Part shown: positions 201 to 58,111 of the stretch, piece by piece
Layout of the letters: each line of letters begins with the position of its first letter
Numbering within the stretch: the first letter of the stretch is position 1
Assembly (NCBI GenBank): GCA_032718475.1
Contig: JAUCBJ010006371.1
Location: forward strand, 1-64,000
Direction of reading: 5' to 3'
Length of the DNA: 64,000 nucleotides
Source: Nemertoderma westbladi
Taxonomy: Eukaryota > Animalia > Xenacoelomorpha
Program-made: the position numbers and the translations under genes
Notes under the pieces: generated by a model
Told to the model about the DNA's origin: nothing
The model's input: the letters and a program-made list of their open reading frames with translations, nothing else
The model's database searches: none

Positions 201-563
201 GAGAGTGGAATAATTAAGCCTTTGGGAGGAGTGGTGCAAGGTAGGGTGAACTACTGTTTGAACTGGTGGGATGGTGTGGGCGAGGTCAGATTGACTTATG
301 GGTTGAAGCAGGGTGGTTAATAAGGGTGCGGTGGCTTTTTGGTTTGTTGGATAACCCTCTATTACTTTCACGTTTAACACATGACCAGTCAGTATAGTAT
401 TATAATTATTAGTATTATTGTTGGTATTTTTTGTTAAAACAGAAAAGTACGTGCAAGAAACATGCTAATAGGAAACGTACAATAATATAGTAAAATACGT
501 ATAATTTGTAAGGCCTATTAGTTAAAGTATTTATTGATCTCTATTATCAATGATACCTTCCAG

Positions 564-815
564 CCAACCAATTCCTACCAACATGCGTTGCTACTCAATC
601 CATCATCCAATAGGATCCGCCGCCTTCCACCGTTCGTCCAATCAGATTGGAGCAGCCACAATCCGTCGTCTGTTTCACTGCTGCCTCCCAGCGGGACTGG
701 TAGGAATCCTATCACGAGGGTTGCTGTTACCCCACACACTGGTCTCCGAATTCGGGGTTGACAGACGGGATAAGGGTCGCCTTGGCAACGGGATTTACTT
801 TGCTAGTTCCGCGAG
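564..815 (+). CDS. PARP4: PARP4 exon (first visible): PARP catalytic domain, N-terminal part
   Basis: RRLFHCCLPAGLVGILSRGLLLP...DKGRLGNGIYF matches PARP4 LLHGS...VGILCRGLLLP...DVGNLGSGIYF. Acceptor ttccag| at 563 (less certain); donor ag|gtcagt at 816, phase 2. Upstream exons lie outside the window. Confidence 0.88.
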
Positions 816-865
816 GTCAGTTGTATGTGTCTCTCCTCTGTGTCTTATATCACTAATACTAACTA

Positions 866-997
866 TATAATCGATTTAAATAAAGTAGCACTGTTTTTCA
901 CGCTGGCTTGAGTGTGATATTTTTACGAACGAGCGTTAGCGAAATATGAAACGAGACCTTGAATGTGAAATACAGGTACTTTATTTAAATCGAATAT
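866..997. mobile_element. Small inverted-repeat (MITE-like/hairpin) element
   Basis: tcgatttaaataaagta (871-887) is the reverse complement of tactttatttaaatcga (977-993); imperfect pairing continues inward. Confidence 0.5.
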
Positions 998-1059
998 GTC
1001 GTTTTATTTTCAAGTTTCGAAGTTTTGTTAATTAAAATTAACATAGAAACCAGTACACT

Positions 1060-1360
1060 AAGGGGCGGTACAGTTATCAGTTAACACTGCAGATGTTGTG
1101 GTGGCACACATTAGATATTTTGTGATGTGCAACACCTGTAACCTGCAACAAGCAACAAGTCGACCGAAGCCGGACGAAGGCTCTTCTCCGATAACTGCTA
1201 CACGAGCGCTACGCGCTACTCCTACCCCAAGTTTTGCTCCCACTAATAATTCAACTGGACCTCATTTTATCGACCCCATGGGATGAAAGCTGAGTGGACC
1301 CAGCCGAGGCTCGAACCAGCAACCAAAAGATTGCAGGCGTTCAACCAACTGAGCGACCCC
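1060..1360 (-). mobile_element. tRNA-derived SINE
   Basis: Minus strand reads GGGGTCGCTCAGTTGG (A box) ... GGTTCGAGCC (B box), then CCACTCAGCTTTCATCCC..GGTCGATAAAATGAG, a central motif shared with the SINE at 52590-52828. The 3' limit is approximate. Confidence 0.7.
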
Positions 1361-1709
1361 ATCTTTACTACCAACCGGAGTAAACCTGTAGTTCCGTAAG
1401 GTTGAGGTTCGAGTGTCTGGGGCGGCTATAGAGTTAGACACAAACGAAGATATCTTCGAAACCCCAGTTTTCGAATTAGCGACAGCTTCACTAGTAGGTA
1501 GGTGACGCTGCGGCCTTGCTGCTAAATCGATAACGGGGTTTTTGGGACTCCGTAGTAAAGATATTTACTGTCAATACGAATAATAAAAATATTTATGTAT
1601 ATATATATATAAAATAATATAATATAATACTGATCAACAATTTCACAATTTTTCAACAAATTTAGAATTGTTAGTTTTAGTTTTATAATATTTGATTAAA
1701 TCTTTTTAG

Positions 1710-1937
1710 CACTAGCATCAACTACTCAACACCTAACAGTTGCACCGGCACACGTTTCCTATTGGTTAATGAGGTTGTCCTTGGCAACGTGTTGGAGATA
1801 CATACAGAAGCACCCGAGCTCAGTGCGCCTCCTAGCGGATTCCATTCCGTTACTGGAGTGGCCTCTACACTCTCCATGGCAACCGACTTTGCCGATGAAG
1901 AGTTCGTAATTTACGACGCAAATCAGCAGAAAATTTG
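1710..1937 (+). CDS. PARP4: PARP4 exon: catalytic domain C-terminal part with catalytic Glu (DEEFVIY)
   Basis: tttttag|c acceptor; TSINYSTPNSCTGTRFLLVNEVVLG...SAPPSGFHSVTGV...TDFADEEFVIYDANQQKI matches PARP4 TSIKYS...TDFEDDEFVVYKTNQVKM; donor tg|gttagt. Confidence 0.93.
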
Positions 1938-21800: not shown

Positions 21801-22375
21801 TAGATTTACTTGTATTTTAGTTACATTGAGTTTATCTGTTAGATTTCCTTGTATTTTAGTTACATTGAGTTTATCTGTTAGATTTACTTGTATTTTAGTT
21901 ACTTTGAGTTTATCTGTTAGATTTACTTGTATTTTAGTTACATTGAGTTTATCTGTTAGATTTACTTGTATTTTAGTTACATTGAGTTTATCTGTTAGAT
22001 TTACTTGTATTTTAGTTCTTTGAGTTTATCTGTTAGATTTACTTGTATTTTAGTTACTTTGAGTTTATCTGTTAGATTTACTTGTATTTTAGTTACATTG
22101 AGTTTATCTGTTAGATTTCCTTGTATTTTAGTTACTTTGAGTTTATCTGTTAGATTTACTTGTATTTTAGTTACATTGAGTTTTTTTCTGTTAGATTTCC
22201 TTGTATTTTAGTTACATTGAGTTTTTTTATGTTAGATTTCCTTGTATGTTAGTTACATTGAGTTTATCTGTTAGATTTACTTGTATTTTAGTTACATTGA
22301 GTTTTTTTCTGTTAGATTTACTTGTATTTTAGTTACATTGAGTTTATCTGTTAGATTTACTTGTATTTTAGTTAC
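12900..22375. repeat. 39-bp satellite, right block (~243 copies), ending at the PARP4 splice acceptor
   Basis: Same unit as 1959-5515; the last copy runs directly into ttttag|TTACCTCATTGAGTTTACA. Confidence 0.98.
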
Positions 22376-22603
22376 CTCATTGAGTTTACACTGGAGGACG
22401 ACTCCCTCACACCTCTAACCCATTCCCTAACCTCCGACGATATTCCTTCTGCCGATATCGATAAACCTCTACCAGTAGATATCCCCCGGGTTACCACTGA
22501 CGACGCTTTGAGTAAATGCCCGTCGGGTTTATTGGCTGCCGGTACCGGGGTCCCCTTAAAGTCAGTCCACGTTCGCGCAAGGATTATCGATTTAGTTGCT
22601 CAG
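22372..22603 (+). CDS. PARP4: PARP4 exon: end of catalytic domain and start of VIT domain
   Basis: Phase-2 join gives C-YLIEFTLEDD (PARP4 KYIIKFSMPGD) ... GLLAAGTGVPLKSVHVRARIIDLVAQ; donor cag|gtaatt. Confidence 0.92.
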
Positions 22604-23111
22604 GTAATTAATGTATTTATTCGAAAATGGAAATGTTTTTGCTATGGATTAGGCCTGTTAGTTACCGATACATCCAACATTTCGGAATTACTTTCATTTT
22701 TTAACAATCATGACCGGTTTACTTAAACTGGAAAAGTGGCATAGAGTATATATTGTAAACTATTGGTAAAAGGAAGTTAATGTAAACTATTATTTTGCCG
22801 TTAGGTCAGTGAATTCGTACAAAATCTGACGACTTATTTCCACTGCGGTCCCCCCAGAACTGAACTGGTACGACCTAGAATATAATGATATTTGTAATTT
22901 TTTTATTCTCGCAGAATATTTTTTTTAACTTCGTCTTATTAGTTTCTTTATGTTATAGCACCTTTTTTCAGGGTCAGGTCGGAGGAGGCATTATTCATCA
23001 GGGAGTTCAGGAAGTATTATTTTTGTGCATCAAACTACATGGACTTACATAACATTAATAATTTATACCATAAATAAAAGTCATGTTTATTTATTTTTAT
23101 CATATATTAAG

Positions 23112-23330
23112 GTTGTAGTCCTTCAGGAGTATTACAATCAGAGAGATGAAGCGGTGGAAGCCAAGTTTGTGTTTCCATTGGACGAATCGTCGGCAGTTTG
23201 TGGGTTCGAAGCGTTTATCAACGGTAAACACATCGTTGGTGAGGTCAAGGAGAAACAGGTGGCTCATAGAGAGTACAAGGAGGCAGTGGAGAAGGGCCAT
23301 GGTGCTTATCTAATGGATGAGGACAGGCCA
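23112..23330 (+). CDS. PARP4: PARP4 exon: VIT domain
   Basis: EAKFVFPLDESSAVCGFEAFINGKHIVGEVKEK...GHGAYLM is near-identical to the PARP4 VIT domain; aag| acceptor, |gtgagt donor, 73 codons. Confidence 0.95.
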
Positions 23331-24025
23331 GTGAGTCGAAGTATATATCTTAATGGGGTTCTAGAATAGATTGTAGTCAGGCCTACGAAGCTATATTCAT
23401 TATATTTAGTAAATTAATCAAGCTCGAAGTTACGAGCTCATTCGCATTTTGAGTGTTTGATGTTCTTGCTGGTAATACATTACAATGATTGTTATTTATT
23501 ACAAAGTATTAGGTTTGCTTCGTTTATAACTTGGAGTTGCGAACTATACCCCTTCCCAACCTGATTAAAAAAACATATCACGGCTCGTACTATACCAGTG
23601 GGGACCCCACAACCACACCATTATTTGCTGGATTTACTGTAGCACCACCATTTCGCAGAAAGTGCAAAATCCAAACATGTTCTATCATCTTATTAATCTA
23701 GCTATACATTTTCGTTAAGATTAAGCACATCTTAGCAAAGTTGGTGTTGACGTGTGGGTGGGATCGAACTGGTTGGAAGTTTGGCGGCATTCCGATAAGG
23801 AGTTCGCAGAAAAAATAAATACTTCCTTATATAGTCCTCAGGACCTGATATCTTGCATGTCTGCAACATCCTTATGGCCTGTTATTGCTACTACAGCTAC
23901 TGTAAGTTATCTTTGAGATATAGTTATGGATATTACTGTCTGAATGTTGGAGTAGGGCCCATCTATAACAATTTTCTTAATTTGCTTTTGAACTTTTTAG
24001 TTTACGTTAATTATTTTGTATTTAG

Positions 24026-24190
24026 GATGTATTTACTGTAACCATTGGTAACCTACCGCCAGACTCAACTGCACTCATTAAGATCACCTACGTCACGGAG
24101 GTGCCAGTTTCCTGTGATCAAGTTGTTTTCTCTCTGCCATCTAGTGTCGCTCCGTGGCAAACTAAAGAACTCACAATGGAATCCACCCAG
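24026..24190 (+). CDS. PARP4: PARP4 exon: VIT C-terminus
   Basis: DVFTVTIGNLPPDSTALIKITYVTEV...PSSVAPWQTKELTMESTQ; tttag| acceptor, cag|gttagc donor, 55 codons (missed by the ORF track). Confidence 0.93.
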
Positions 24191-25015: not shown

Positions 25016-26122
25016 GATTGTGTTACCAAGGAAACACCAATCGGTGAATTCCACGGAGACAGCAGCGTCCAGGTTTCCTTGGAGATGGCATCGGAGATCC
25101 GAAGCGTGGAGAGCTCGAGCCACCCAATCAGAACGAAGCTGACCGCAACCAAGGCTACCGTGGAGACTCTGATTGGCTGCAATCTGTCCGAGGGTTTCCG
25201 CCTGTCCATCTCATTGGTCGAGATCCACGCGCCCCGTATGTGGGTGGAGGAGTGGAGCGAGGAGCGGGGTACCGGTGCCCCCTCCTCCGACCCCCACTCC
25301 GCCTCCTCCTCCGCCCCCCATCCCGAGGCCTGTATGCTAGCTTTCTACCCCGAGTTCGACGCCCAATCCCGCACCGACTACCGACTACTCATCCTGCTCG
25401 ACGTCTCCAACTCGATGGACCTCTCGAGCCTCCAGGAGGCGCGCACCCTCGCCTCCCTAGCTCTCCTCTCCCTCCATCGACGCTCCTCTTTCAACCTTGT
25501 CCTCTTCGCCTCCAGCTGGGCGGAGCTCTTCCCGGGCTTCGTAGAGGCGTCGCATAGCAACGTCCAATCAGCGATCGCGTTAGTTGCCTCGACAACGGGG
25601 GGTCGCGGTGCCACTGACCTAGTCGCGCCGTTGGAGGCCGCGGCTCAGCTCGCTGGCTCCCGATTGGTCAACGCCATGGTGATTACCGACGGACACGTAT
25701 CCAATGACGGCTCCGTTATGAACTGCATCCGGGCCAGGTCCAATAAACTGCGAGTGTTCCCCTGCGGGGTGGGCCGCTCCACCAATCGCTATCTACTCAA
25801 CCTGATCGCGAGGACCTCTAGCGGTTGCGCTGAGTACTTCGAGAGTAATAATCGAAGCAAGTGGCGACGCAAGATGGCGCTGCAATTCGAGAGGGTTGGC
25901 TCGCCGTCGTTGAAGCGAGTTCGTATCGAGTGGCAACTGTTCGGTGAGCGCGCCGACATCCTACAGGCGCCCCGGATAGTCAGCTCGCTGTTCAGCGGGA
26001 ACCGACTTGTAGTCTACGGGTTGCTTAGCAACTGTCGTCTAGCGACTCTGACCGCGGATATCGACGGACACGAAGTCTCGGCGGTTATCAGTTGTTCCGA
26101 ACTATCAGTTACTAGTGGGAAG
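25016..26122 (+). CDS. PARP4: PARP4 exon: vWA domain with intact MIDAS
   Basis: EIHAPRMWVE...EACMLAFYPEF, LLDVSNSM (DxSxS), GATDL, VITDGH, RVFPCGVG, QAP...SLFSGNRLVVYG; taag| acceptor, aag|gtttgt donor. Confidence 0.95.
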
Positions 26123-31000: not shown

Positions 31001-34000
31001 GGACCAGCACCACAACTCACATTATTACCTATGTTGGACCAGCGCCACAGCTCACATTATTACCATGTTGGACCAGCACCACAGCTCACATTATTACCAT
31101 GTTGGACCAGCACCAGAGCTCACATTATTACCTATGTTGGACCAGCACCACAGCTCACATTATTACCTATATTGGACCAGCACCGCAGCTCACATTATTA
31201 CCATGTTGGACCAGCACCACAGCTCACATTATCACCTATGTTGGACCAGCACCACAGCTCGCATTATTACCTATGTTGGACCAGCACCACAGCTCACATT
31301 ATTACCATGTTGGACCAGCACCACAGCTCACATTATTACCATGTTGGACCAGCACCACAGCTCACCTTATTACCTATATTGGACCAGCACCACAGCTAAC
31401 ATTATTACCATATTGGACCAGCACGACAGCTCACATTATTACCATGTTGGACCAGCACCACAGCTCACATTATTACCATGTTGGACCAGCACCACAGCTC
31501 ACATTATTACCATGTTGGACCAGCACCACAGCTCACATTATTACCATGTTGGACCAGCACCACAGCTCACATTATTACCATGTTGGACCAGCACCACAGC
31601 TCACATTATTACCATGTTGGACCAGCACCACATCTCACATTATTACCTATGTTGGACCAGCGCCACAGCTCACATTATTACCTATGTTGGACCAGCACCA
31701 CAGCTCGCATTATTACCTATGTTGGACCAGCACCACAGCTCACATTATTACCATGTTGGACCAGCACCACAGCTCACATTATTACCATGTTGGACCAGCA
31801 CCACAGCTCACCTTATTACCTATATTGGACCAGCACCACAGCTAACATTATTACCATATTGGACCAGCACGACAGCTCACATTATTACCATGTTGGACCA
31901 GCACCACAGCTCACATTATTACCATGTTGGACCAGCACCACAGCTCACATTATTACCATGTTGGACCAGCACCACAGCTCCCATTATTACCATGTTGGAC
32001 CAGCACCACAGCTCACATTATTACCATGTTGGACCAGCACCACAGCTCACATTATTACCATGTTGGACCAGCACCACAACTCACATTATTACCTATGTTG
32101 GACCAGCGCCACAGCTCACATTATTACCATGTTGGACCAGCACCACAGCTCACATTATTACCATGTTGGACCAGCACCAGAGCTCACATTATTACCTATG
32201 TTGGACCAGCACCACAGCTCACATTATTACCATGTTGGACCAGCACCACAGATCACATTATTACCTATGTTGGACCAGCACCACAGCTCACATTATTACC
32301 AATGTTGGACCAGAACCACAGCTCACATTATTACCTATGTTGGACCAGCACCACAGCTCACATTATTACCTATGTTGGACCAGCACCACAGCTCACATTA
32401 TTACCTATTTTGGACCAGCACCACAGCTCACATTATTACCACGTTGCCCCAGCACCACGGCTCACATTATTACCATGTTGGACCAGCACCACAGCTCACA
32501 TTATTACCTATGTTGGACCAGCACCACAGCTCACAATATTACCTATATTGGACAGCAGTACAGCTCACATTATTACCTAGGTTAGACCAGCACCACAGCT
32601 CACATTATTACCTATGTTGGACCAGCACCACAGCTCACATTATTACCATGTTGGACCAGCACCACAGCTCACATTATTACCATTTTGGACCAGCACCACA
32701 GCTCACATTATTACCATTTTGGACCAGCACCACAGCTCACATTATTACCATGTTGGACCAGCACCACAGCTCACATTATTACCATGTTGGACCAGCACCA
32801 CAGCTCACATTATTACCATGTTGGACCAGCACCACAGCTCACATTATTACAATGTTGGACCAGCACCACAGCTCACATTATTACCTATGTTGGACCAGCA
32901 CCACAGCTCACATTATTAGCTATATTGGACCAGCACCGCAGCTCACATTATTACCATGTTGGACCAGCACCACAGCTCACATTATCACCTATGTTGGACC
33001 AGCACCACAGCTCGCATTATTACCTATGTTGGACCAGCACCACAGCTCACATTATTACCATGTTGGACCAGCACCACAGCTCACATTATTACCATGTTGG
33101 ACCAGCACCACAGCTCACCTTATTACCTATATTGGACCAGCACCACAGCTAACATTATTACCATATTGGACCAGCACCACAGCTCACATTATTACCATGT
33201 TGGACCAGCACCACAGCTCACATTATTACCATGTTGGACCAGCACCACAGCTCACATTATTACCATGTTGGACCAGCACCACAGCTCACATTATTACAAT
33301 GTTGGACCAGCACCACAGCTCACATTATTACCTATGTTGGACCAGCACCACAGCTCACATTATTACCATGTTGGACCAGCACCACAGCTCACATTATTAC
33401 CATGTTGGACCAGCACCACAGCTCACATTATTACCATGTTGGACCAGCACCACAGCTCACATTATTACCATGTTGGACCAGCACCACAGCTCACATTATT
33501 ACCTATGTTGGACCAGCACCACAGCTCACATTATTACCTATTTTGGACCAGCACCACAGCTCACATTATTACCTATGTTGGACCAGCACCACAACTCACA
33601 TTATTACCTATGTTGGACCAGCGCCACAGCTCACATTATTACCATGTTGGACCAGCACCACAGCTCACATTATTACCATGTTGGACCAGCACCAGAGCTC
33701 ACATTATTACCTATGTTGGACCAGCACCACAGCTCACATTATTACCTATATTGGACCAGCACCGCAGCTCACATTATTACCATGTTGGACCAGCACCACA
33801 GCTCACATTATCACCTATGTTGGACCAGCACCACAGCTCGCATTATTACCTATGTTGGACCAGCACCACAGCTCACATTATTACCATGTTGGACCAGCAC
33901 CACAGCTCACATTATTACCATGTTGGACCAGCACCACAGCTCACCTTATTACCTATATTGGACCAGCACCACAGCTAACATTATTACCATATTGGACCAG

Positions 34001-37000
34001 CACGACAGCTCACATTATTACCATGTTGGACCAGCACCACAGCTCACATTATTACCATGTTGGACCAGCACCACAGCTCACATTATTACCATGTTGGACC
34101 AGCACCACAGCTCACATTATTACCATGTTGGACCAGCACCACAGCTCACATTATTACCATGTTGGACCAGCACCACAGCTCACATTATTACCATGTTGGA
34201 CCAGCACCACATCTCACATTATTACCTATGTTGGACCAGCGCCACAGCTCACATTATTACCTATGTTGGACCAGCACCACAGCTCGCATTATTACCTATG
34301 TTGGACCAGCACCACAGCTCACATTATTACCATGTTGGACCAGCACCACAGCTCACATTATTACCATGTTGGACCAGCACCACAGCTCACCTTATTACCT
34401 ATATTGGACCAGCACCACAGCTAACATTATTACCATATTGGACCAGCACGACAGCTCACATTATTACCATGTTGGACCAGCACCACAGCTCACATTATTA
34501 CCATGTTGGACCAGCACCACAGCTCACATTATTACCATGTTGGACCAGCACCACAGCTCCCATTATTACCATGTTGGACCAGCACCACAGCTCACATTAT
34601 TACCATGTTGGACCAGAACCACAGCTCACATTATTACCTATGTTGGACCAGCACCACAGCTCACATTATTACCTATGTTGGACCAGCACCACAGCTCACA
34701 TTATTACCTATTTTGGACCAGCACCACAGCTCACATTATTACCACGTTGCCCCAGCACCACGGCTCACATTATTACCATGTTGGACCAGCACCACAGCTC
34801 ACATTATTACCTATGTTGGACCAGCACCACAGCTCACAATATTACCTATATTGGACAGCAGTACAGCTCACATTATTACCTAGGTTAGACCAGCACCACA
34901 GCTCACATTATTACCTATGTTGGACCAGCACCACAGCTCACATTATTACCATGTTGGACCAGCACCACAGCTCACATTATTACCATTTTGGACCAGCACC
35001 ACAGCTCACATTATTACCATTTTGGACCAGCACCACAGCTCACATTATTACCATGTTGGACCAGCACCACAGCTCACATTATTACCATGTTGGACCAGCA
35101 CCACAGCTCACATTATTACCATGTTGGACCAGCACCACAGCTCACATTATTACAATGTTGGACCAGCACCACAGCTCACATTATTACCTATGTTGGACCA
35201 GCACCACAGCTCACATTATTAGCTATATTGGACCAGCACCGCAGCTCACATTATTACCATGTTGGACCAGCACCACAGCTCACATTATCACCTATGTTGG
35301 ACCAGCACCACAGCTCGCATTATTACCTATGTTGGACCAGCACCACAGCTCACATTATTACCATGTTGGACCAGCACCACAGCTCACATTATTACCATGT
35401 TGGACCAGCACCACAGCTCACCTTATTACCTATATTGGACCAGCACCACAGCTAACATTATTACCATATTGGACCAGCACCACAGCTCACATTATTACCA
35501 TGTTGGACCAGCACCACAGCTCACATTATCACCTATGTTGGACCAGCACCACAGCTCGCATTATTACCTATGTTGGACCAGCACCACAGCTCACATTATT
35601 ACCATGTTGGACCAGCACCACAGCTCACATTATTACCATGTTGGACCAGCACCACAGCTCACCTTATTACCTATGTTGGACCAGCACCACAGCTCACATT
35701 ATTACCATATTGGACCAGCACCACAGCTCACATTATTACCATGTTGGACCAGCACCACAGCTCACATTATTACCATGTTGGACCAGCACCACAGCTCACA
35801 TTATTACCATGTTGGACCAGCACCACAGCTCACATTATTACCTATGTTGGACCAGCACCACAGCTCACATTATTACCTATTTTGGACCAGCACCACAGCT
35901 CACATTATTACCTATGTTGGACCAGCACCACAACTCACATTATTACCTATGTTGGACCAGCGCCACAGCTCACATTATTACCATGTTGGACCAGCACCAC
36001 AGCTCACATTATTACCATGTTGGACCAGCACCAGAGCTCACATTATTACCTATGTTGGACCAGCACCACAGCTCACATTATTACCTATATTGGACCAGCA
36101 CCGCAGCTCACATTATTACCATGTTGGACCAGCACCACAGCTCACATTATCACCTATGTTGGACCAGCACCACAGCTCGCATTATTACCTATGTTGGACC
36201 AGCACCACAGCTCACATTATTACCATGTTGGACCAGCACCACAGCTCACATTATTACCATGTTGGACCAGCACCACAGCTCACCTTATTACCTATATTGG
36301 ACCAGCACCACAGCTAACATTATTACCATATTGGACCAGCACGACAGCTCACATTATTACCATGTTGGACCAGCACCACAGCTCACATTATTACCATGTT
36401 GGACCAGCACCACAGCTCACATTATTACCATGTTGGACCAGCACCACAGCTCACATTATTACCATGTTGGACCAGCACCACAGCTCACATTATTACCATG
36501 TTGGACCAGCACCACAGCTCACATTATTACCATGTTGGACCAGCACCACATCTCACATTATTACCTATGTTGGACCAGCGCCACAGCTCACATTATTACC
36601 TATGTTGGACCAGCACCACAGCTCGCATTATTACCTATGTTGGACCAGCACCACAGCTCACATTATTACCATGTTGGACCAGCACCACAGCTCACATTAT
36701 TACCATGTTGGACCAGCACCACAGCTCACCTTATTACCTATATTGGACCAGCACCACAGCTAACATTATTACCATATTGGACCAGCACGACAGCTCACAT
36801 TATTACCATGTTGGACCAGCACCACAGCTCACATTATTACCATGTTGGACCAGCACCACAGCTCACATTATTACCATGTTGGACCAGCACCACAGCTCCC
36901 ATTATTACCATGTTGGACCAGCACCACAGCTCACATTATTACCATGTTGGACCAGCACCACAGCTCACATTATTACCATGTTGGACCAGCACCACAACTC

Positions 37001-40000
37001 ACATTATTACCTATGTTGGACCAGCGCCACAGCTCACATTATTACCATGTTGGACCAGCACCACAGCTCACATTATTACCATGTTGGACCAGCACCAGAG
37101 CTCACATTATTACCTATGTTGGACCAGCACCACAGCTCACATTATTACCATGTTGGACCAGCACCACAGATCACATTATTACCTATGTTGGACCAGCACC
37201 ACAGCTCACATTATTACCAATGTTGGACCAGAACCACAGCTCACATTATTACCTATGTTGGACCAGCACCACAGCTCACATTATTACCTATGTTGGACCA
37301 GCACCACAGCTCACATTATTACCTATTTTGGACCAGCACCACAGCTCACATTATTACCACGTTGCCCCAGCACCACGGCTCACATTATTACCATGTTGGA
37401 CCAGCACCACAGCTCACATTATTACCTATGTTGGACCAGCACCACAGCTCACAATATTACCTATATTGGACAGCAGTACAGCTCACATTATTACCTAGGT
37501 TAGACCAGCACCACAGCTCACATTATTACCTATGTTGGACCAGCACCACAGCTCACATTATTACCATGTTGGACCAGCACCACAGCTCACATTATTACCA
37601 TTTTGGACCAGCACCACAGCTCACATTATTACCATGTTGGACCAGCACCACAGCTCACATTATTACCATGTTGGACCAGCACCACAGCTCACATTATTAC
37701 AATGTTGGACCAGCACCACAGCTCACATTATTACCTATGTTGGACCAGCACCACAGCTCACATTATTACCATGTTGGACCAGCACCACAGCTCACATTAT
37801 TACCATGTACGACCAGCACCACAGCTCACATTATTACCATGTTGGACCAGCACCACAGCTCACATTATTACCTATGTTGGACCAGCACCACAGCTCACAT
37901 TATTAGCTATATTGGACCAGCACCGCAGCTCACATTATTACCATGTTGGACCAGCACCACAGCTCACATTATCACCTATGTTGGACCAGCACCACAGCTC
38001 GCATTATTACCTATGTTGGACCAGCACCACAGCTCACATTATTACCATGTTGGACCAGCACCACAGCTCACATTATTACCATGTTGGACCAGCACCACAG
38101 CTCACCTTATTACCTATATTGGACCAGCACCACAGCTAACATTATTACCATATTGGACCAGCACCACAGCTCACATTATTACCATGTTGGACCAGCACCA
38201 CAGCTCACATTATTACCATGTTGGACCAGCACCACAGCTCACATTATTACCATGTTGGACCAGCACCACAGCTCACATTATTACAATGTTGGACCAGCAC
38301 CACAGCTCACATTATTACCTATGTTGGACCAGCACCACAGCTCACATTATTACCATGTTGGACCAGCACCACAGCTCACATTATTACCATGTTGGACCAG
38401 CACCACAGCTCACATTATTACCATGTTGGACCAGCACCACAGCTCACATTATTACCTATGTTGGACCAGCACCACAGCTCACATTATTACCTATTTTGGA
38501 CCAGCACCACAGCTCACATTATTACCTATGTTGGACCAGCACCACAACTCACATTATTACCTATGTTGGACCAGCGCCACAGCTCACATTATTACCATGT
38601 TGGACCAGCACCACAGCTCACATTATTACCATGTTGGACCAGCACCAGAGCTCACATTATTACCTATGTTGGACCAGCACCACAGCTCACATTATTACCT
38701 ATATTGGACCAGCACCGCAGCTCACATTATTACCATGTTGGACCAGCACCACAGCTCACATTATCACCTATGTTGGACCAGCACCACAGCTCGCATTATT
38801 ACCTATGTTGGACCAGCACCACAGCTCACATTATTACCATGTTGGACCAGCACCACAGCTCACATTATTACCATGTTGGACCAGCACCACAGCTCACCTT
38901 ATTACCTATATTGGACCAGCACCACAGCTAACATTATTACCATATTGGACCAGCACGACAGCTCACATTATTACCATGTTGGACCAGCACCACAGCTCAC
39001 ATTATTACCATGTTGGACCAGCACCACAGCTCACATTATTACCATGTTGGACCAGCACCACAGCTCACATTATTACCATGTTGGACCAGCACCACAGCTC
39101 ACATTATTACCATGTTGGACCAGCACCACAGCTCACATTATTACCATGTTGGACCAGCACCACATCTCACATTATTACCTATGATGGACCAGCGCCACAG
39201 CTCACATTATTACCTATGTTGGACCAGCACCACAGCTCGCATTATTACCTATGTTGGACCAGCACCACAGCTCACATTATTACCATGTTGGACCAGCACC
39301 ACAGCTCACATTATTACCATGTTGGACCAGCACCACAGCTCACCTTATTACCTATATTGGACCAGCACCACAGCTAACATTATTACCATATTGGACCAGC
39401 ACGACAGCTCACATTATTACCATGTTGGACCAGCACCACAGCTCACATTATTACCATGTTGGACCAGCACCACAGCTCACATTATTACCATGTTGGACCA
39501 GCACCACAGCTCACATTATTACCATGTTGGACCAGCACCACAGCTCACATTATTACCATGTTGGACCAGCACCACAGCTCACATTATTACCATGTTGGAC
39601 CAGCACCACAACTCACATTATTACCTATGTTGGACCAGCGCCACAGCTCACATTATTACCATGTTGGACCAGCACCACAGCTCACATTATTACCATGTTG
39701 GACCAGCACCAGAGCTCACATTATTACCTATGTTGGACCAGCACCACAGCTCACATTATTACCATGTTGGACCAGCACCACAGATCACATTATTACCTAT
39801 GTTGGACCAGCACCACAGCTCACATTATTACCAATGTTGGACCAGAACCACAGCTCACATTATTACCTATGTTGGACCAGCACCACAGCTCACATTATTA
39901 CCTATGTTGGACCAGCACCACAGCTCACATTATTACCTATTTTGGACCAGCACCACAGCTCACATTATTACCACGTTGCCCCAGCACCACGGCTCACATT

Positions 40001-41800
40001 ATTACCATGTTGGACCAGCACCACAGCTCACATTATTACCTATGTTGGACCAGCACCACAGCTCACAATATTACCTATATTGGACAGCAGTACAGCTCAC
40101 ATTATTACCTAGGTTAGACCAGCACCACAGCTCACATTATTACCTATGTTGGACCAGCACCACAGCTCACATTATTACCTATGTTGGACCAGCACCACAG
40201 CTCACATTATTACCTATGTTGGACCAGCACCACAGCTCACATTATTACCATGTTGGACCAGCACCACAGCTACATTATTACCTATGTTGGACCAGCCAGC
40301 ACCACAGCTCACATTATTACCTATGTTGGACCAGCACCACAGCTCACATTATTACCTATGTTGGACCAGCACCACAGCTCACATTATTACCATGTTGGAC
40401 CAGCACCACAGCCCACATTATTACCTATGTTGGACCAGCACCACAGCTCACATTATTACCTATGTTGGACCAGCACCACAGCTCACATTATTACCTATGT
40501 TGGACCAGCACCACAGCTCACATTATTACCATGTTGGACCAGCACCACAGCTCACATTATTACCATATTGGACCAGCACCACAGCTCACATTATTACCTA
40601 TGTTGGACCAGCACCACAGCTCACATTATTACCATTTTGGACCAGCACCACAGCTCACATTATTACCATGTTGGACCATCACCACAGCTCACATTATTAC
40701 CTATGTTGGACCAGCACCACAGCTCACATTATTACCTATGTTGGACCAGCACCACAGCTCACATTATTACCTATGTTGGACCAGCACCACAGCTCACATT
40801 ATTACCTATGTTGGACCAGCACCACAGCTCACATTATTACCTATGTTGGACCAGCACCACAGCTCACATTATTACCATGTTGGACCAGCACCACAGCTCA
40901 CATTATTACCATGTTGGACCAGCACCACAGCTCACATTAATACCTATGTTGGACCAGCACCACAGCTCACATTAATACCTATGTTGGACCAGCACCACAG
41001 CTCACATTATTACCTATGTTGGGCCAGCACCACAGCTCACATTATTACCTATGTTGGACCAGCACCACAGCTCACATTATTACCTATGTTGGACCAGAAC
41101 CACAGCTCACATTATTACCATGTTGGACCAGCACCACAGCTCACATTATTACCTATGTTGGACCAGCACCACAGCTCACATTATTACCATGTTGGACCAG
41201 CACCACAGCTCACATTATTACCATGTTGGACCAGCACCACAGCTCACATTATTACCTATGTTGGACCAGCACCACAGCTCACATTATTACCATGTTGGAC
41301 CAGCACCACAGCTCACATTAATACCTATGTTGGACCAGCACCACAGCTCACATTATTACATATGTTGGACCAGCACCACAGCTCACATTATTACCTATGT
41401 TGGACCAGCACCACAGCTCACATTATTACCTATGTTGGACCAGAACCACAGCTCACATTATTACCATGTTGGACCAGCACCACAGCTCACATTATTACCT
41501 ATGTTGGACCAGCACCACAGCTCACATTATTACCTATGTTGGGCCAGCACCACAGCTCACATTATTACCTATGTTGGACCAGCACCACAGCTCACATTAT
41601 TACCTATGTTGGACCAGAACCACAGCTCACATTATTACCATGTTGGACCAGCACCACAGCTCACATTATTACCTATGTTGGACCAGCACCACAGCTCACA
41701 TTATTACCATGTTGGACCAGCACCACAGCTCACATTATTACCTATGTTGGGCCAGCACCACAGCTCACATTATTACCTATGTTGGAACAGTACCACAGCT
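28095..41800. repeat. 34/35-bp satellite (~400 copies) ATGTTGGACCAGCACCACAGCTCACATTATTACC(T) with higher-order structure
   Basis: Direct inspection; lies in PARP4 intron 26123-42239. Confidence 0.98.
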
Positions 41801-42239
41801 GCTCACAGCAGCTAGGGCGTGAAGTGTATAAGGCGTGGCATGGGTTATTTTTCAAACATTTAAAAGGTTGCTGAATTTCACATTTTTGGAAAACAGGAAG
41901 AAAGGTTGTGCAGATAGAATAATTTATATTTAACCGGGTGCCTAAGTAGGCCTTGTTATGTTAGACATGGATGACAGTGTAGTCGTAATTATGTTATTTT
42001 TGTCCCGATAATTATAAGATAAATAATCATATTATTCCTCGAGAAAAATAATATTTTTTATTATTTTATATTTTTTGGTGAAATCTCTCAAATTTTTATT
42101 GTACGTATCGATAGAGTACCGAAGTATAGCAAATGTTTGAACCTGATTTGAACAAATTAATCAACACACTCTAAATTTTAAAAATATTTTGGTTATCGGA
42201 CAACCAGTCCTGTAACTTCCATTCATTTCTATTTTCCAG

Positions 42240-42422
42240 ATGATCCATCAGCTAGCAGCTCGAGCTCTTATTCGCGATTGGGAACAGGGGTTGCTTGGCA
42301 ACACAGCTGTGGAACACGAGTCATTGAAAATGACAACAAAATCGACAATTATAGAACTCAGCCAAATCTATCAAATAGTCACGGAATTTACTAGCTTTAT
42401 CGCTGTTGAGAAAAGAGAAAAA
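42240..42422 (+). CDS. PARP4: PARP4 exon: post-vWA helical region
   Basis: MIHQLAARALIRDWEQG...IIELSQIYQIVTEFTSFIAVEKR matches PARP4 MIHKLAARALIRDYEDG...TQFTSFVAVEKR; ttccag| acceptor, |gttagt donor. Confidence 0.95.
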
Positions 42423-42607
42423 GTTAGTCGTAATCTATTAGTAATGTATTGTGTTATTGTTATATTTTATATTTTTTTAACTGTTTGTTTCTGTGGAATT
42501 TCTAATAATTTGTACCTCGCCTTAATTTTCCAATTTCAAGGGGTTTTAATTAACAAATGAGATTTTACAATTGTAATATTGTATTTGTAACCATTACGTA
42601 TTTACAG

Positions 42608-42808
42608 GATGAAGTATTTGACAGCTCTGCTGGTCCAGATATGTTCGAGTTATTGGCGATTGAGGACGTGGACAGTCTGAAGTATATGGGATGGACTGAA
42701 GGGGACCCCGAACCAGAAGATATAGCCGATATAATATTCGACCCCAACGATGTTATGGATGCGGCTTCTGCCGCTGAGACTATAGGCGGTCTAATTAAAG
42801 ATGCAAAG
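42608..42808 (+). CDS. PARP4: PARP4 exon (EDVDSLKYMGW motif)
   Basis: ELLAIEDVDSLKYMGW resembles PARP4 ELIAKEDVDFLPYMSW; tacag| acceptor, aag|gtattt donor, 67 codons. Confidence 0.9.
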
Positions 42809-43209
42809 GTATTTTAATATTTATTAGCTAAATAACTTTGTTATGGGATCAACTAATGGTTCCTTATTTATTTTAGTTTAGTGATATGATTTGATTCTTT
42901 TAAGATTTCTCAGGAAACCAAAATAATATATTCAATTACTAAGGGGGCAGGCATTTTGTTCGTGTTTCATCAATGCATTTAAATATTGCGTCCAAATTGT
43001 CAAATAACAGAATTACCCTGGATCACAATTTGTGCCATTCGATTTTGCATCTCGCTAACAGTCTTCCACATTTTGATGCGTCGCTATCGACACATCTACT
43101 TATTATTCAAGTTGCGTCACATTAACTCCATTTTATTATATTCTTAATCGTATGTAATTAATTATCACAATCCTTTAAAAATGATATATTATTATATTTT
43201 AACTGCTAG

Positions 43210-45586
43210 GTAGCCGAATCTTCCAATATAAAGGAAGCGGAACGCGCATACCGTGAGGCAATGGAAGCTTGCGATAATATTATTGGAGATGAATTACTAA
43301 TGAAACCGATTGCAGTAAAGGCATTCCTCGATAGCAAAATAGCCTGGTTGCGGTTTCTTATCAATTTCAAGAAAGAAGAGGCCTCAACTATAGAGGGTAT
43401 CGTCGAGGCTTTCGATTGGCTATCGCAGGTTGACATGGATGAAATCCCAGAGGATCATCGAGGCGATTACTTCGAGTTAATAGACGATGCCGTTTGTGAG
43501 TTAGGCGAGCTCGGATTTTGGGAGTTGTTGTGTGATTTGGTTGGAACTGAAGAACGCCTTGACATAAACGTTCATTTTGGAGAACTGGTAGAGTCGATGA
43601 AGAAATTCTCCCTACCGGTAGGTGTTAGGCATCTACTCGATGCTTCTCTAGAACTGTGTGAGGAACAGAAATCTAAGGCCTTAGAGGAATTGGGCCATGA
43701 TTATAGTACAAGTGCGTCTTCATCTTCTCTTGATGAGGGGGAGGATGATGATAGAGATGTTTGTGAGTGTTACGATCCTGATCTCACAGGATCTTCCAGC
43801 TACTCCGACGTTGATGAGGCCGTCGCCCCGATTGTTATGGATCTCGGCGGGTTTACCGTCAAGGCGGGATTCGCGGGATACGAGAAACCCTCGGTGACGG
43901 TTCCTACGGCGGTGGGGCGTCCCAGACACCAGGGCGTCATGGTCGGAATGGGTCAGAAGGACAGCTACGTTGGTTCCGAAGCCGTGGGTAGCGTGCCTTC
44001 GGTAGGGAAGGTTCTACCGGAAACCGGTAATTCCGTGAAGAAGAAGAAGAAGAAGGCACGGGTAGTATCGAATGAACCGGTGTTCAACTTGCAGCGAGAA
44101 GTCGCCGAAAAAGCGCCAATTTATACAGAAATAGCGAGGAGGCGGATTGCAGGGGAAGGTGGCGGTTTCGGTGGCGGTGGTGACAAGGGGGCGTCCTTCA
44201 AGGAGGCGCCGATAACAGACTCAAAGGAATTGGGGGTCTCTGAAATTATCACTGGTTCATTATTTGGTGCGTCGAATAAAATGATGGTGCAAGCCGTTCC
44301 ATCCAAGCGTTTGTCAACTTTGAATGCCGCGGCGGCCCCGCAGCAATATTCGCAAAGAACCTACAAATTTGCGGCAGCACCACCGGCACCACCTCCACCA
44401 GGACTTCCTGCGTCATTCGGACCACCACCATCTCAATCTCCAACATACAGTGCAACATCACCTATATCACTAGGATATGGTGCACCACCGTATTCTATTG
44501 CAGCCGCAACTTATGGCACGCCACAAGCATCACCATTTATTTCTGCACCTAGACCGCCAGCACCTCAGCAACACTCCATATTATTTGGTGCACCACCTGC
44601 TCCATCACGACCACTACATCAACCTCCTCCTCCACCTGCACGCAAATCATTTCTACTCGGTGCCCCTCAAGCACTACAATATGCTTCACATATAGGATGG
44701 CGTGCAGAACCACAACCTTCCTTTACATTCGGGGCACCAATACCATCATCAGCTCCGCTCCCGCGGGCAAGAGGTGGAGCATTACCTCAATCACAAGATT
44801 TCGCTCCATCACCGCCCAAACCGGCTCCAGTACAATCCATCACACAACCGCCCTCGCCCCCGCAAGCCGCTACCAAACCTGAATATTTCTGTAATATTTC
44901 GAGAGCTAAGCGAGTAATTACAAGTAAATCAGTGGTGGATAGGAAAGCCAGCGAAATTACATCAGCGATGGATGCAGAAGAATTTGGAGGACTTAGAAAG
45001 ACGACGTCTAGTGGGATTAAGCCATCGTGGAGATCTGTACCTACCCCTGGGGGTAACTTATTGATGGCCGCCGATTATGTTCCTTTCGCAGCCGAAATAC
45101 CCCAGCGAGTTCTATTAAAGAAATCGACGGATCGCGATGCCGTGGTCCTACCTGCAGGAGGTAAAAGGATTCCGGTACCATCGGGACGTGGGGGTTCGCG
45201 TCGGTTCGCCGCCCCTGTCGTCCCCCGACCGTCCATGCGGGTCTCGGATTTCAACGACGAGTTACTAATGGCGAGGAATACGATGTCTCTAGATGATGAA
45301 GATGAGTTGATGGCCGAACTGGATGAGATGGAAGAGGATGGCGACGACGAGTGGGACGACGGAAGTCCAACTCTGTACGATACCGGGTTTAGCTATATAG
45401 ACATGGCTCTCTCTAAGAGTGACCCCGCGGTTCCCAGTATATGTGTAGCACAGCAACTAAAGGCTCTCTGGGAACTCCAAAATAGTGAGGGTTATTGGGA
45501 ACTTTCAGTAGAAGTCGGCGAACTGATTGATATACCGTGCCACCAGATTCTGGCTAATCTAGTTGACGCCGGCCTAATGTCGTTAG
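43210..45586 (+). CDS. PARP4: PARP4 large linker exon (14-3-3-like helices, actin N-terminal fragment, Pro-rich region, WH2/acidic-like motifs, start of MVP-binding domain)
   Basis: 2377-nt open frame; ctag| acceptor, g|gtaagt donor (phase 1); ends [21 protein letters not shown]...AGLMSLG, resembling PARP4 LLSLQTEDGFWKLTPELGLIL...KGIQSLG. Confidence 0.92.
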
Positions 45587-45644
45587 GTAAGTTTATGAAT
45601 AATTTGTTTTGTTTATAATACATTTAGACGCTACCGCCAACCGA

Positions 45645-47426
45645 CCATCGATATGTCCGAGACAGACCGACGATATGTCCGACAGACCGACGATATGTCC
45701 GACAGACCGACGATATGACCGACAGACCGACGATATGTCCGACATACCGACGATATGTCCGACATACCGACGATATGTCCGACAGACCGACGATATGTCC
45801 GACGATATATCCGACGATATGACCGACAGACCGACGATATGTCCGACATACCGACGATATGTCCGACAGACCGACGATATGTCCGACGATATATCCGACG
45901 ATATGACCGACAGACCGACGATATGTCCGACAGACCGACGATATGTCCGACAGAACGACGATATGTCCGACAGACCGACGATGTGTGCGACAGACCGACG
46001 ATGTGTCCGACACACCGACGATATGTCCGACAGACCGACGCTATGTCTGACAGAGCGACGATATGTCCGACAGACCGATGCTATGTCCGACAGACCGACG
46101 ATATGTCCGACAGACCGACGATATGACCGACAGACCGACGATATGTCCGACATACCGACGATATGTCCGACATACCGACGATATGTCCGACAGACCGACG
46201 ATATGTCCGACGATATATCCGACGATATGACCGACAGACCGACGATATGTCCGACATACCGACGATATGTCCGACAGACCGACGATATGTCCGACGATAT
46301 ATCCTACGATATGACCGACAGACCGACGATATGTCCGACAGACCGACGATATGTCCGACAGAACGACGATATGTCCGACAGACCGACGATGTGTGCGACA
46401 GACCGACGATGTGTCCGACACACCGACGATATGTCCGACAGACCGACGCTATGTCTGACAGAGCGACGATATGTCCGACAGACCGATGCTATGTCCGACA
46501 GACCAACGATATGTCCGACACACCGACGCTATGTCCGACAGACCGACGATATGTCCGACAGACCGATGCTATGTCCGACAGACCGACGCTATGTCCGACA
46601 GACAGACGATGTGTCCGACAGACCGACGATATATCCGACAAACCGACGCTATGGCCGACAGACCGACGATATGTCCGTCCGATCGACGATATGTCCGACC
46701 GACCGACGATATATCTGACAGACCGACGATATGTCCGACAGACCGACGATATGTCCGACAGACCGACGATTTGTCCGACCGACCGACGATATGTCCGACA
46801 GACCGACGATATGTCCGACAGACCGACGATATGTCTGACAGACCGACGATATGTCCGACAGACCCACGATATGTCCGACAGACCGACCGTCTCCCGTCTG
46901 ACGATACGTCCGACAGACCGACGATATGTCCGACAGACCGACGATATGTCCGACAGACCCACGATATGTCCTACAGACCGACGATATGTCCGACAGACCG
47001 ACGATATGTCCGACAGACCGACCGTCTCCCGTCTGACGATACGTCCGACAGACCGACGATATGTCCGACAGACCGACGATATGTCCGACAGACCGACGAT
47101 ATGTCAGACAGACCGACGATATGTCCGACAGACCGACGATATGTCTGACAGACCGACGATATGTCCGACAGACCCACGATATGTCCTACAGACCGACGAT
47201 ATGTCCGACAGACCGACGATATGTCCGACAGACCGACCGTCTCCCGTCTGACGATACGTCCGACAGACCGACGATATGTCCGACAGACCGACGATATGTC
47301 CGACAGACCGACGATATGTCCGACAGACCGACGATATGTCAGACAGACCGACGATATGTCCGACAGACCGACGATATGTCCGACAGACCGGACCGTCTCC
47401 CGTCTGACGATACTTCCGACAGACCG
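45645..47426. repeat. 20-bp CpG-rich minisatellite GACAGACCGACGATATGTCC filling the last PARP4 intron
   Basis: About 85 copies; internal 408-bp duplication (ORF-track peptides repeat at 45755 and 46163). Confidence 0.96.
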
Positions 47427-47453
47427 GTTATTTTCCGATTATTTCTGTTCCAG

Positions 47454-47725
47454 GTATTCGCACAACGGACTCGACTACGAGATTCGTTGCCACACTGTTC
47501 GTCCTTCTTTATATATCGAACCTGGATGCTTTTCTCGACGGTGTTGACCTCACGGTCGCTGACCTTAAAAATCTAAAATTCCTCATTGTCAGTGACTTTG
47601 AAGGTCGTCTTGGTAAGGCTGTTGAATTTGTTAAGAAGATTAATGGAAGTTTCCCATTGGTTCTTACCAGTTTGGAATTGGGACGGAATATTCCTGAGTC
47701 TTTAGATATGATAGTCGCAGAATAA
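47454..47725 (+). CDS. PARP4: PARP4 terminal exon: MVP-interacting C-terminus
   Basis: ttccag|gt join gives G-IRTTDSTTRFVATLFVLLYI...KAVEFVKKINGSFPLVLTSLELGRN...AE*, resembling PARP4 LIATMLVLQFI...QASEWVRRTEGQYPSICPRLELGND; TAA at 47723-47725. Confidence 0.9.
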
Positions 47726-57730: not shown

Positions 57731-58111
57731 CTGAATAGATAAATAATAGCGAGGTGTTATTATTACGATGGCATTAACAATTACACGATTTGATCAATGT
57801 CATAATGCAGTGTATAGTACAATGCATAACTAATATTCAAAAAATTTAACATTATTTGATCTAGTTAAGTGAATTATTGGGTTAGATAATACTATTGAGG
57901 AGAAGAAAACAGAAGATGTACGATGTCTGTTTTGCGAGCAGCTAGACAGTGGTTCCTGTAACTAATGACTTGTTGTGCGAACATTGATGGTGACAACGGT
58001 TATTCCCGGGGGATCCCAAACTGTTCCACCTCCTGCTGCCATACACCACGAATCCATCCTGCATTCCTGCATCTCAAGGATTATTCAGGTTTTCCTTCAG
58101 TTGTTGGTTAC

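What the first reader, a model, noticed from the sequence alone, without database searches (positions are those of the whole stretch)
43807..43983. In-frame actin N-terminal fragment with a perfectly preserved D-loop inside PARP4
Seen: [57 protein letters not shown] aligns without gaps to beta-actin 2-58. Residues 35-55 (43912-43974) are 21/21 identical, residues 2-34 are only 13/33 identical (ATP loop DNGSG > DLGGF), and similarity stops after A58. Known: the D-loop mediates subunit contacts and DNase I binding, and holds G42-V43 (grimelysin/protealysin cleavage), M44/M47 (MICAL oxidation), K50 (ACD toxin cross-linking) and Y53 (phosphorylation). Inference: this is an old capture under selection specifically for the D-loop, acting as a decoy or an actin-cleft-binding peptide rather than an ATPase. 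Divergent flanks and the open frame argue against a chimeric assembly.
Basis: partly seen in the sequence, partly recalled or inferred. Interest (0 to 1): 0.92.

Follow-up and report, generated by a model that had tools for sequence, protein, structure and literature searches.

The report
Vault enzyme's array of host baits
This animal's gene for the vault-particle enzyme PARP4 carries an unchanged copy of an exposed loop of actin, and its relatives in invertebrates and amoebae carry this or other pieces of core cell proteins at the same spot, likely as baits for pathogen weapons.

Summary
Observation confirmed and much wider than one gene. Actin residues 2-58 sit in frame in the largest exon of a PARP4 (vault PARP) gene. 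The 21-residue D-loop is identical to actin, while its DNA differs from the host's nearest actin contigs at 8-10 of 62-72 bases. Three DNA runs span it in one or nearly one contig, and RNA-type contigs splice the exon in. The same piece occurs in PARP4 of nine animal phyla: 34 of 105 non-vertebrate and 0 of 15 fish/shark sequences found by the core alone. The same linker also holds pieces of 14-3-3, ubiquitin, HSP70, calmodulin-type EF-hands, synaptobrevin, Snf7, histone tails, Pol II heptads, ribosomal P-protein tails and a WASP-type VCA, which differ between close paralogs. Human PARP4 evolves under positive selection in this linker. Best reading (0.6): an integrated-decoy array that lures pathogen effectors to a vault-tethered ADP-ribosyltransferase. 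Main rival (0.3): a scaffold for host partners, including actin control. Perina 2014 already listed actin, 14-3-3 and ubiquitin-related domains on PARP4-like proteins. The D-loop focus, the breadth and the decoy reading were not found in 10 literature searches. No function is tested.

The parts
550..1935 (+). PARP catalytic domain, two exons (about 550-807 and 1747-1935; boundaries approximate)
   Evidence: tblastn of three PARP4 orthologues, E 1e-9 to 1e-16; translation
22373..24190 (+). VIT domain exons (about 22373-22604; 23112-23330; 24026-24190)
   Evidence: Pfam VIT E 5e-24; tblastn; splice sites of the last two
25016..26122 (+). vWA / ITIH-like core exon
   Evidence: Pfam VWA_3 E 3e-16; AG/GT; the loose end of an X4 contig at 42238 reads into this exon's last bases
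42240..42808 (+). Two exons ending the ITIH-like core (42240-42422, 42608-42808)
   Evidence: GT..AG joints in X4; tblastn
43210..45586 (+). Largest exon: the variable linker (proposed bait region) plus the start of the C-terminal domain; positional counterpart of human exon 30
   Evidence: Open frame; splice joint 42808/43210 and loose end into the last exon; position between ITIH-like core and MVP-interacting domain as in PMC4038475 and PMC10450202
43231..43467 (+). Weak remnant of the 14-3-3 C-terminal half found at this position in orthologues
   Evidence: 9.9 bits against a profile of six orthologue pieces, best of 500 shuffles 8.6; no 14-3-3 hit in PDB or Pfam directly; helices of low confidence in the model
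43813..43983 (+). Actin residues 2-58
43831..43905 (+). Actin's first three beta strands, diverged; phosphate-loop residues N12 and G15 replaced
   Evidence: AlphaFold2 strands at 208-211, 216-221, 229-232, block pLDDT 83-95 for residues 201-230; column conservation
43912..43974 (+). Actin 35-55: D-loop with its stem, 21 of 21 identical
44371..44870 (+). Proline-rich low-complexity linker, with one Pol II heptad-like stretch at 44437-44463 (by eye, not significant on its own)
   Evidence: sequence; no Pfam hit
45265..45369 (+). Acidic motif ending in a tryptophan: remnant of a WASP-type central-acidic module or of a Snf7 piece (ambiguous)
   Evidence: 14.1 bits against a profile of eight PARP4 VCA pieces, best of 500 shuffles 12.8; 9.1 bits against a two-sequence Snf7 profile, best shuffle 6.4; Pfam Snf7 E 0.24-0.44; no PDB hit
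45421..47725 (+). C-terminal helical domain, likely the MVP-interacting (MINT) domain: end of the large exon plus last exon 47454-47725
   Evidence: tblastn to the Oscarella C-terminus E 1e-6; splice shown by X4 loose end at 45589; naming by position from PMC10450202 and PMC12280208

Best explanation
The actin piece is an ancient, conserved insert in the variable linker of PARP4, one of many pieces of core host proteins carried there, and it likely works as an integrated decoy (bait) for pathogen effectors that attack actin's D-loop. Shown: the linker lies between the catalytic plus ITIH-like block and the C-terminal domain; it holds partial copies of conserved host proteins; the set differs between lineages and between close paralogs; the D-loop is frozen while the ATP-binding residues have drifted. 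From papers: human PARP4 is a mono-ADP-ribosyltransferase anchored in the vault cage by its C-terminal domain, and its linker is disordered and positively selected. Inferred: an effector that binds, modifies or cuts the bait is brought next to the transferase and tagged or held at the vault; a cut in the linker would also free the enzyme from its anchor, as a tripwire. I commit to bait-then-tag/trap; the output step is the least supported.
For: (1) Selection on protein sequence: 0 of 21 residues changed, with 8-9 base differences over about 14 synonymous sites to the nearest host actin contigs, rough dS 1.1-1.5. (2) Depth: present in ctenophore, sponges, cnidarians, acoel, flatworm, molluscs, hemichordates, echinoderms and a tunicate; 34 of the 51 hits are PARP4-type. 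(3) Unbiased set found by the core alone: 34 of 105 non-vertebrate proteins carry the piece, 33 with a near-perfect D-loop and one cut short at Q41; no decayed remnant was detected in the other 71. (4) Shared derived changes point to one old capture: G15 and Q59 are kept in 0 of 27; non-bilaterian copies run to about residue 70, bilaterian ones stop near A58. (5) Unrelated host pieces in the same linker, by Pfam: 14-3-3 half, ubiquitin, HSP70 substrate-binding part, EF-hands, synaptobrevin, Snf7, Ribosomal_60s tail, Pol II repeat, WH2, FG repeats, and single cases of PDZ, BRK, Roc, clathrin propeller and a PRP8 piece. By PDB: histone H3 tail E 1.7e-5, N-WASP VCA E 1.7e-5, ribosomal P0 tail as the only hit, weak at E 3.7. 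Motif counts in 102 non-vertebrate linkers: Pol II heptad 27, ubiquitin end 20, P-protein tail 11, H3 tail 5, H4 tail 1, against at most 1 in 100 local shuffles and 0 in 15 vertebrate rows. Nuclear, ribosomal, membrane-traffic and cytoskeletal pieces share no pathway, which fits baits better than one cellular job (inference). (6) Turnover: pairs with 89-97% identical cores differ in actin presence and align only at the linker ends. (7) Four dictyostelid PARP4s carry 14-3-3 and P-protein-tail motifs, three of them heptads as well, plus VCA-like modules. (8) Papers: positive selection confined to this linker in primates and bats, proposed pathogen interface (PMC4038475); proposed site of viral cleavage or modification (PMC10450202); K50 in the D-loop is a substrate of a Vibrio/Aeromonas cross-linking toxin (PMC7828245); the other vault protein TEP1 is an NLR-like NADase (two preprints). 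(9) Parallel case: NLR-like DUF4062-NACHT-TPR proteins of amoebae and Diphylleia end in a whole actin domain.
Against: No effector is shown to engage any piece, and no immune phenotype is known for an invertebrate PARP4. In this gene actin is the only clear piece; the 14-3-3-like and acidic motifs only just beat shuffles. Sponge and amoeba PARP4s hold a complete polyproline-WH2-central-acidic module, which together with a D-loop fits real actin regulation. This gene's catalytic histidine motif reads H-C-C, where the 113 of 120 orthologues matched by the pattern read H-[A/S/C]-[S/T], so its enzyme may be altered. Vertebrates keep vaults without recognisable pieces (0 of 15, fish and sharks only). 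D-loop DNA is somewhat closer to actin than uniform-codon saturation predicts (P about 0.004-0.013), and the Actinia copy is 30 of 35 identical to actin before the D-loop, so occasional gene conversion or recapture is not excluded. No PARP4-derived RNA-type contig was listed over 43907-43970 itself. Whether this animal has the major vault protein was not testable. Some single-case pieces in orthologues may be merged gene models.
Confidence: 0.6

Rival explanations
1. Host-partner scaffold, including actin control. The pieces would recruit the normal partners of the copied proteins (actin and its regulators for the D-loop and VCA, readers for histone tails, and so on) as vault cargo or as ADP-ribosylation substrates. 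This is close to Perina et al.'s reading of a link to the cytoskeleton.
For: Complete VCA module in five sponge and four dictyostelid PARP4s; D-loop residues V43, M47 and R39 make filament contacts (PMC7828245); vaults co-localise with actin filaments and PARP4 loss changes the vault interactome; strict conservation fits host binding equally well.
Against: Does not explain why unrelated pieces are swapped between 89-97% identical paralogs, why 71 of 105 non-vertebrate sequences lack the actin piece, or the positive selection on the mammalian linker. Bilaterian copies have lost residues 59-69, which complete subdomain 2 (structural role recalled).
Confidence: 0.3
2. Neutral passengers refreshed by gene conversion or repeated retro-insertion of abundant mRNAs into a tolerant disordered exon.
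For: The donors are all highly expressed genes (recalled); third-position GC is 0.69-0.71 in the actin piece against 0.37-0.52 in its flanks; one lineage has a near-actin N-terminal part.
Against: More than half of the synonymous sites differ with no amino-acid change; the vWA exon has the same third-position GC, 0.73; the same boundaries and derived residues recur across phyla.
Confidence: 0.06
3. Assembly or annotation artefact: a neighbouring actin gene merged into PARP4.
For: 10 of the 51 hits are whole actins joined to unrelated genes or to each other, which look like merged gene models.
Against: The piece lies inside one exon; single contigs of X1 and X3 span it; it is partial and diverged; it holds the same position in nine phyla.
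Confidence: 0.02

Closest known systems
PARP4-like proteins with appended 14-3-3, actin or ubiquitin-related domains (Perina et al. 2014, PMC4245714, section 3.1.2 read in full)
   Same: Same family and the same three kinds of appended domain, reported in amoebae, Capsaspora, Salpingoeca, lancelet and sea urchin.
   Different: The text names actin or actin-binding domains only for unicellular species and 'some PARP4-like proteins', does not say the actin is a 58-70 residue piece or that the D-loop is what is kept, lists none of the other pieces, and reads them as links to signalling and the cytoskeleton. Its Fig. 1B and supplement were not seen and may show more.
Human PARP4 exon 30 (Daugherty et al. 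2014, PMC4038475; Suskiewicz et al. 2023, PMC10450202; passages read)
   Same: Largest exon, disordered, between the ITIH-like block and the MVP-interacting domain; proposed host-pathogen interface or site of viral cleavage.
   Different: In mammals it diversifies and had no detectable homology; here it holds frozen copies of host proteins.
Integrated decoys of plant NLR pairs (Cesari et al. 2014, PMC4246468, abstract read)
   Same: A copy of an effector target fused into a larger protein; identity of the copy varies between lineages and paralogs.
   Different: The carrier is an ADP-ribosyltransferase of the vault, not an NLR; many short pieces sit in series; effector binding and signalling are untested.
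Protease tripwires NLRP1 and CARD8 (search listing abstracts only) and the alpha-2-macroglobulin bait region (recalled)
   Same: A disordered stretch carrying substrate mimics, attached to a response module or a cage.
   Different: Those baits are short cleavage sites; here there are folded pieces and modification-site peptides, and no FIIND/CARD or thioester.
Actin
   Same: Residues 2-58; D-loop identical; first three strands predicted.
   Different: About 85% of the chain is missing, N12 and G15 are replaced; it cannot be an ATPase or a filament subunit.

Membership tests
PARP4 / vault PARP (clade 5) | PARP catalytic domain followed by VIT and vWA | tested here: met
PARP4 / vault PARP (clade 5) | N-terminal BRCT domain | not testable with these tools
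   The gene's 5' end lies upstream of the window and no genome is held
PARP4 / vault PARP (clade 5) | C-terminal MVP-interacting domain | tested here: inconclusive
   Positional homologue, tblastn E 1e-6 to one orthologue's C-terminus and 0.65 to another; MVP binding and presence of MVP not tested
PARP4 / vault PARP (clade 5) | Intact catalytic H-Y-E residues | tested here: inconclusive
   H, Y and E are visible by eye in the translated exons, but the motif after H departs from all 113 matched orthologues
PARP4 / vault PARP (clade 5) | Groups with animal PARP4 in a tree of the core | tested here: met
   FastTree, 113 rows, 555 columns, rooted on a dictyostelid: inside a clade with the animal sequences (support 0.986 including one unnamed row); its closer place is unresolved (0.44 with an acoel, long branches)
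Actin | Full four-subdomain ATPase fold with both phosphate loops | tested here: not met
   Only residues 2-58; N12 and G15 replaced; Foldseek matches cover about 55 residues, none at E <= 0.001
Integrated decoy | Copy of a conserved host protein fused into another protein | tested here: met
Integrated decoy | Copy has lost the donor's own activity | tested here: inconclusive
   ATPase activity impossible for the actin piece; actin binding by the D-loop and Arp2/3 activation by the VCA not tested
Integrated decoy | Integrated part varies between lineages and paralogs | tested here: met
Integrated decoy | Carrier is an NLR of a sensor/helper pair | tested here: not met
   No NB-ARC or NACHT family in the PARP4 scans; so it may work like one but is not an NLR-ID
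Integrated decoy | Effector engagement triggers defence | not testable with these tools
   needs experiments

The most novel reading that the evidence does not exclude
The ancestral job of vault PARP, since before animals and amoebae split, is effector-triggered immunity: PARP4 displays a swappable string of host hub-protein baits (actin D-loop, 14-3-3, ubiquitin, HSP70, SNARE, ESCRT-III, histone tails, Pol II tail, ribosomal stalk tail, WASP VCA), and the vault is the cage in which lured effectors are tagged or held. The linkers would then be a readable record of which host surfaces pathogens of invertebrates and amoebae attack, and the positively selected human exon 30 would be the derived form of this bait region.
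Probability: 0.45. Interest if true: 0.95.

Novelty: new variant of a known kind. Interest (0 to 1): 0.86.

Why it matters
The function of vaults is described as unknown in the papers read. A bait array on their resident enzyme gives a concrete hypothesis that can be tested piece by piece in Nematostella, Hydra, oysters or dictyostelids, ties the positively selected human exon 30 to an ancestral state, and fits new reports that the other minor vault protein is an NLR-like NADase. It would extend integrated decoys from plant NLRs to an animal and amoebal enzyme. Even under the rival reading, a D-loop peptide kept across nine phyla outside actin is an undescribed actin-related motif.

Tried and rejected
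No whole genome is held, so the species' actin genes and MVP could not be read. The run search listed no holder on record as RNA; X4 is treated as RNA only because its contigs skip predicted introns at GT..AG. The gap in X4 cover at 43907-43970 was considered as a spliced-out D-loop and rejected: the stretch is 64 bases, begins CG and ends GT, and like gaps occur at 43597 and 44809-44857; the tool also drops human-like contigs. Direct PDB and Pfam searches gave no 14-3-3 hit for 43210-43530 and nothing in PDB for 45220-45420. Pfam IRF/CAP-Gly hits at 8147-8590 come from a tandem repeat. A first exon model had wrong boundaries and was corrected. The maximum-likelihood tree did not finish; FastTree was used, leaving out 23 redundant or truncated rows; no formal test of single origin was run. 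The search of 50% representatives found the actin piece in only 5 of 150 rows, many of them fragments or more distant VIT-vWA proteins. The third homologue search returned mostly whole actins; 5 of 120 held a partial actin. A cross-phylum BLAST of linkers recovered only actin, ubiquitin and 14-3-3. The column conservation is biased, because those 27 rows were found and anchored by the D-loop; one search is the fair test. The AlphaFold2 model is poor overall (mean pLDDT 55.7) and probably recalls actin. No complex prediction was run. Ten paper searches found no description of a D-loop insert or decoy array in PARP4; the library lacks most subscription journals, and supplements of the two preprints are closed and that of PMC4245714 was not opened. 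Earlier scan findings: none relevant.

Full report
The observation. Pfam Actin matches at E 2.4e-9 and phmmer aligns the piece without gaps to actin 2-58 in the PDB, best E 2.9e-18. Residues 35-55 are identical; residues 2-34 are 15 of 33 identical to Actin-5C (counted); similarity ends at A58.

The host gene. tblastn with three orthologues places PARP catalytic, VIT, vWA and C-terminal segments in order along the + strand. A seven-exon partial model (23112-23330, 24026-24190, 25016-26122, 42240-42422, 42608-42808, 43210-45586, 47454-47725) has AG/GT sites and a single terminal stop. The actin piece lies in the largest exon, between the ITIH-like core and the C-terminal domain. In a FastTree of the core the gene is a long animal branch of unresolved position.

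Real DNA, spliced exon. Runs X1 and X3 each cover 42150-45650 in one contig and X2 nearly so; all three may be sources of this assembly. Run X4, a separate sample and study listed as 'DNA?', skips 42423-42607 and 42809-43209 at GT..AG, and its loose ends read into the vWA exon and the last exon, so I take it as RNA (inference). Its contigs cover 43208-43596, 43598-43906, 43971-44808 and 44858-45589. None listed from PARP4 covers 43907-43970, where actin contigs pile up at depths above 10,000. Inclusion of the D-loop in the mRNA is therefore inferred, not shown.

Selection, not recent copying. The host's own actin contigs, recognisable by their loose ends, differ from the PARP4 DNA at 8 of 62, 9 of 63 and 10 of 72 bases; the two differences listed by place are third codon positions. 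With about 14 synonymous sites this is a rough dS of 1.1-1.5, assuming the differences are synonymous. It is fewer differences than uniform-codon saturation gives (mean 15, P 0.004-0.013); shared codon bias, picking the nearest of several paralogs or old conversion could each explain that.

A family-wide insert. A search with the actin region returned 51 long proteins: 34 PARP4-type from nine animal phyla plus one unnamed source, 7 NLR-like proteins and 10 apparent merged gene models. Because that search favours intact D-loops, I searched again with the core alone (best 120 of 898 hits, centred on a hemichordate). An actin profile found the piece in 34 of 105 non-vertebrate and 0 of 15 fish and shark proteins. 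The positives are redundant (about 23 genera); 40 of the 71 non-vertebrate negatives lack my C-terminal signature and may be truncated, 31 have it. Of the 34, 33 keep a near-perfect D-loop and one stops at Q41. The ctenophore has two tandem copies, one with a decayed D-loop. G15 and Q59 are kept in 0 of 27 copies; non-bilaterian copies extend to about residue 70 and bilaterian ones, including this gene, stop near A58. This suggests one old capture with many losses; it was not tested formally, and the near-actin copy in Actinia suggests local refreshing.

Not alone. Pfam scans of 23 and 24 selected family members place other host pieces after the core: the C-terminal half or whole of 14-3-3, ubiquitin, the HSP70 substrate-binding part, EF-hand pairs, synaptobrevin, Snf7, Ribosomal_60s tails, Pol II repeats, WH2, FG repeats, and single cases of PDZ, BRK, Roc, clathrin propeller and a PRP8 piece. 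PDB searches match a Dreissena stretch to the histone H3 tail (E 1.7e-5), a Dysidea stretch to N-WASP VCA (E 1.7e-5) and an Ostrea stretch to the ribosomal P0 tail (only hit, E 3.7). With partly recalled patterns, 102 non-vertebrate linkers gave 27 heptad, 20 ubiquitin-end, 11 P-tail, 5 H3-tail and 1 H4-tail hits, against at most 1 in 100 local shuffles and 0 in 15 vertebrate rows, one of which had little linker. Four named dictyostelid PARP4s hold 14-3-3, P-tail motifs and VCA-like modules, three also heptads, and no actin piece. Of eight pairs compared, five with 89-97% identical cores differ in actin presence and align only at the linker ends; two of those five involve a truncated model. 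In this window the other pieces are weak: a 14-3-3-like stretch (9.9 bits, best shuffle 8.6) and an acidic tryptophan motif resembling VCA (14.1, best shuffle 12.8) or Snf7 (9.1, best shuffle 6.4).

Shape. AlphaFold2 gives three confident beta strands for actin 7-32 and a low-confidence D-loop; the rest is unreliable. The piece cannot bind ATP as actin does. A small sheet presenting a flexible loop is the likely form (inference).

How it likely works. Human PARP4 is a mono-ADP-ribosyltransferase (PMC10711553, abstract) held in the vault by its C-terminal domain (PMC12280208, passages). The linker is disordered, positively selected in primates and bats, and was proposed as a pathogen interface (PMC4038475, passages) or a site of viral cleavage (PMC10450202, passages). 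TEP1, the other minor vault protein, is reported as an NLR-like NADase (bioRxiv 10.64898/2026.09.04.749371 and 10.64898/2026.09.21.753143, passages). Pieces from unrelated pathways, frozen at exposed surfaces and exchanged between paralogs, fit the integrated-decoy model (PMC4246468, abstract). I infer that an effector engaging a bait is tagged or held at the vault, and that a cut would release the enzyme (0.6). The main rival is a scaffold for host partners, with real actin regulation (0.3): the complete VCA in sponges and amoebae is its best evidence. Neutral carriage (0.06) and artefact (0.02) are poorly supported.

What is known. Perina et al. 2014 (PMC4245714, section read in full; figure and supplement not seen) reported 14-3-3, actin and ubiquitin-related domains on PARP4-like proteins and read them as links to signalling and the cytoskeleton. 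Citarelli 2010 (PMC2964712, passages) lists none. Ten searches found no paper on the D-loop, the wider array or a decoy role. The fusion is thus partly in print as an annotation; its extent and the bait reading appear new within the library searched.

Verdict. Real, ancient and selected; best understood as one bait in a modular array on vault PARP. New variant of a known kind; interest 0.86; function untested.

Noticed in passing
P0030, P0034, P0041, P0042, P0044, P0047, P0049: NLR-like proteins (BRCT-TIG-DUF4062-NACHT-TPR in the two scanned) from Balamuthia, Pyxidicula, Copromyxa, Diphylleia and metagenomes end in a whole actin domain, 64-82% identical to a fungal actin. DUF4062 is reported as an NADase effector. 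A textbook-like integrated decoy candidate; not found in one paper search.
   Followed up: partly
P0355: An unnamed protein with a Sec23-type zinc finger and vWA trunk carries actin 3-71 before a proline-rich linker: possibly an independent capture of the same actin piece.
   Followed up: partly
window 24136-24937: A 61-base tandem array repeats the end of the exon 24026-24190 together with its GT donor about 13 times, giving many possible splice donors.
   Followed up: no
window 634-660, PARP catalytic exon: The motif after the catalytic histidine reads H-C-C, unlike all 113 matched orthologues.
   Followed up: partly
window 28095-41800, 12900-22375, 1959-5515, 5727-8888, 45649-47390: Very long tandem arrays (periods 34/69, 39, 39, 22/65, 20) fill the PARP4 introns; the two 39-base arrays lie in different introns.
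   Followed up: no
window 44038-44055: Six lysine codons in a row just after the actin piece; several orthologues also have basic runs there.
   Followed up: no
window 55487-57793, minus strand: Last exon of a convergent ankyrin-repeat gene with a long low-complexity tail.
   Followed up: partly
P0344, P0349: In Saccostrea cucullata a synaptobrevin-like stretch directly precedes the actin piece and a P-protein-tail-like motif follows it.
   Followed up: partly
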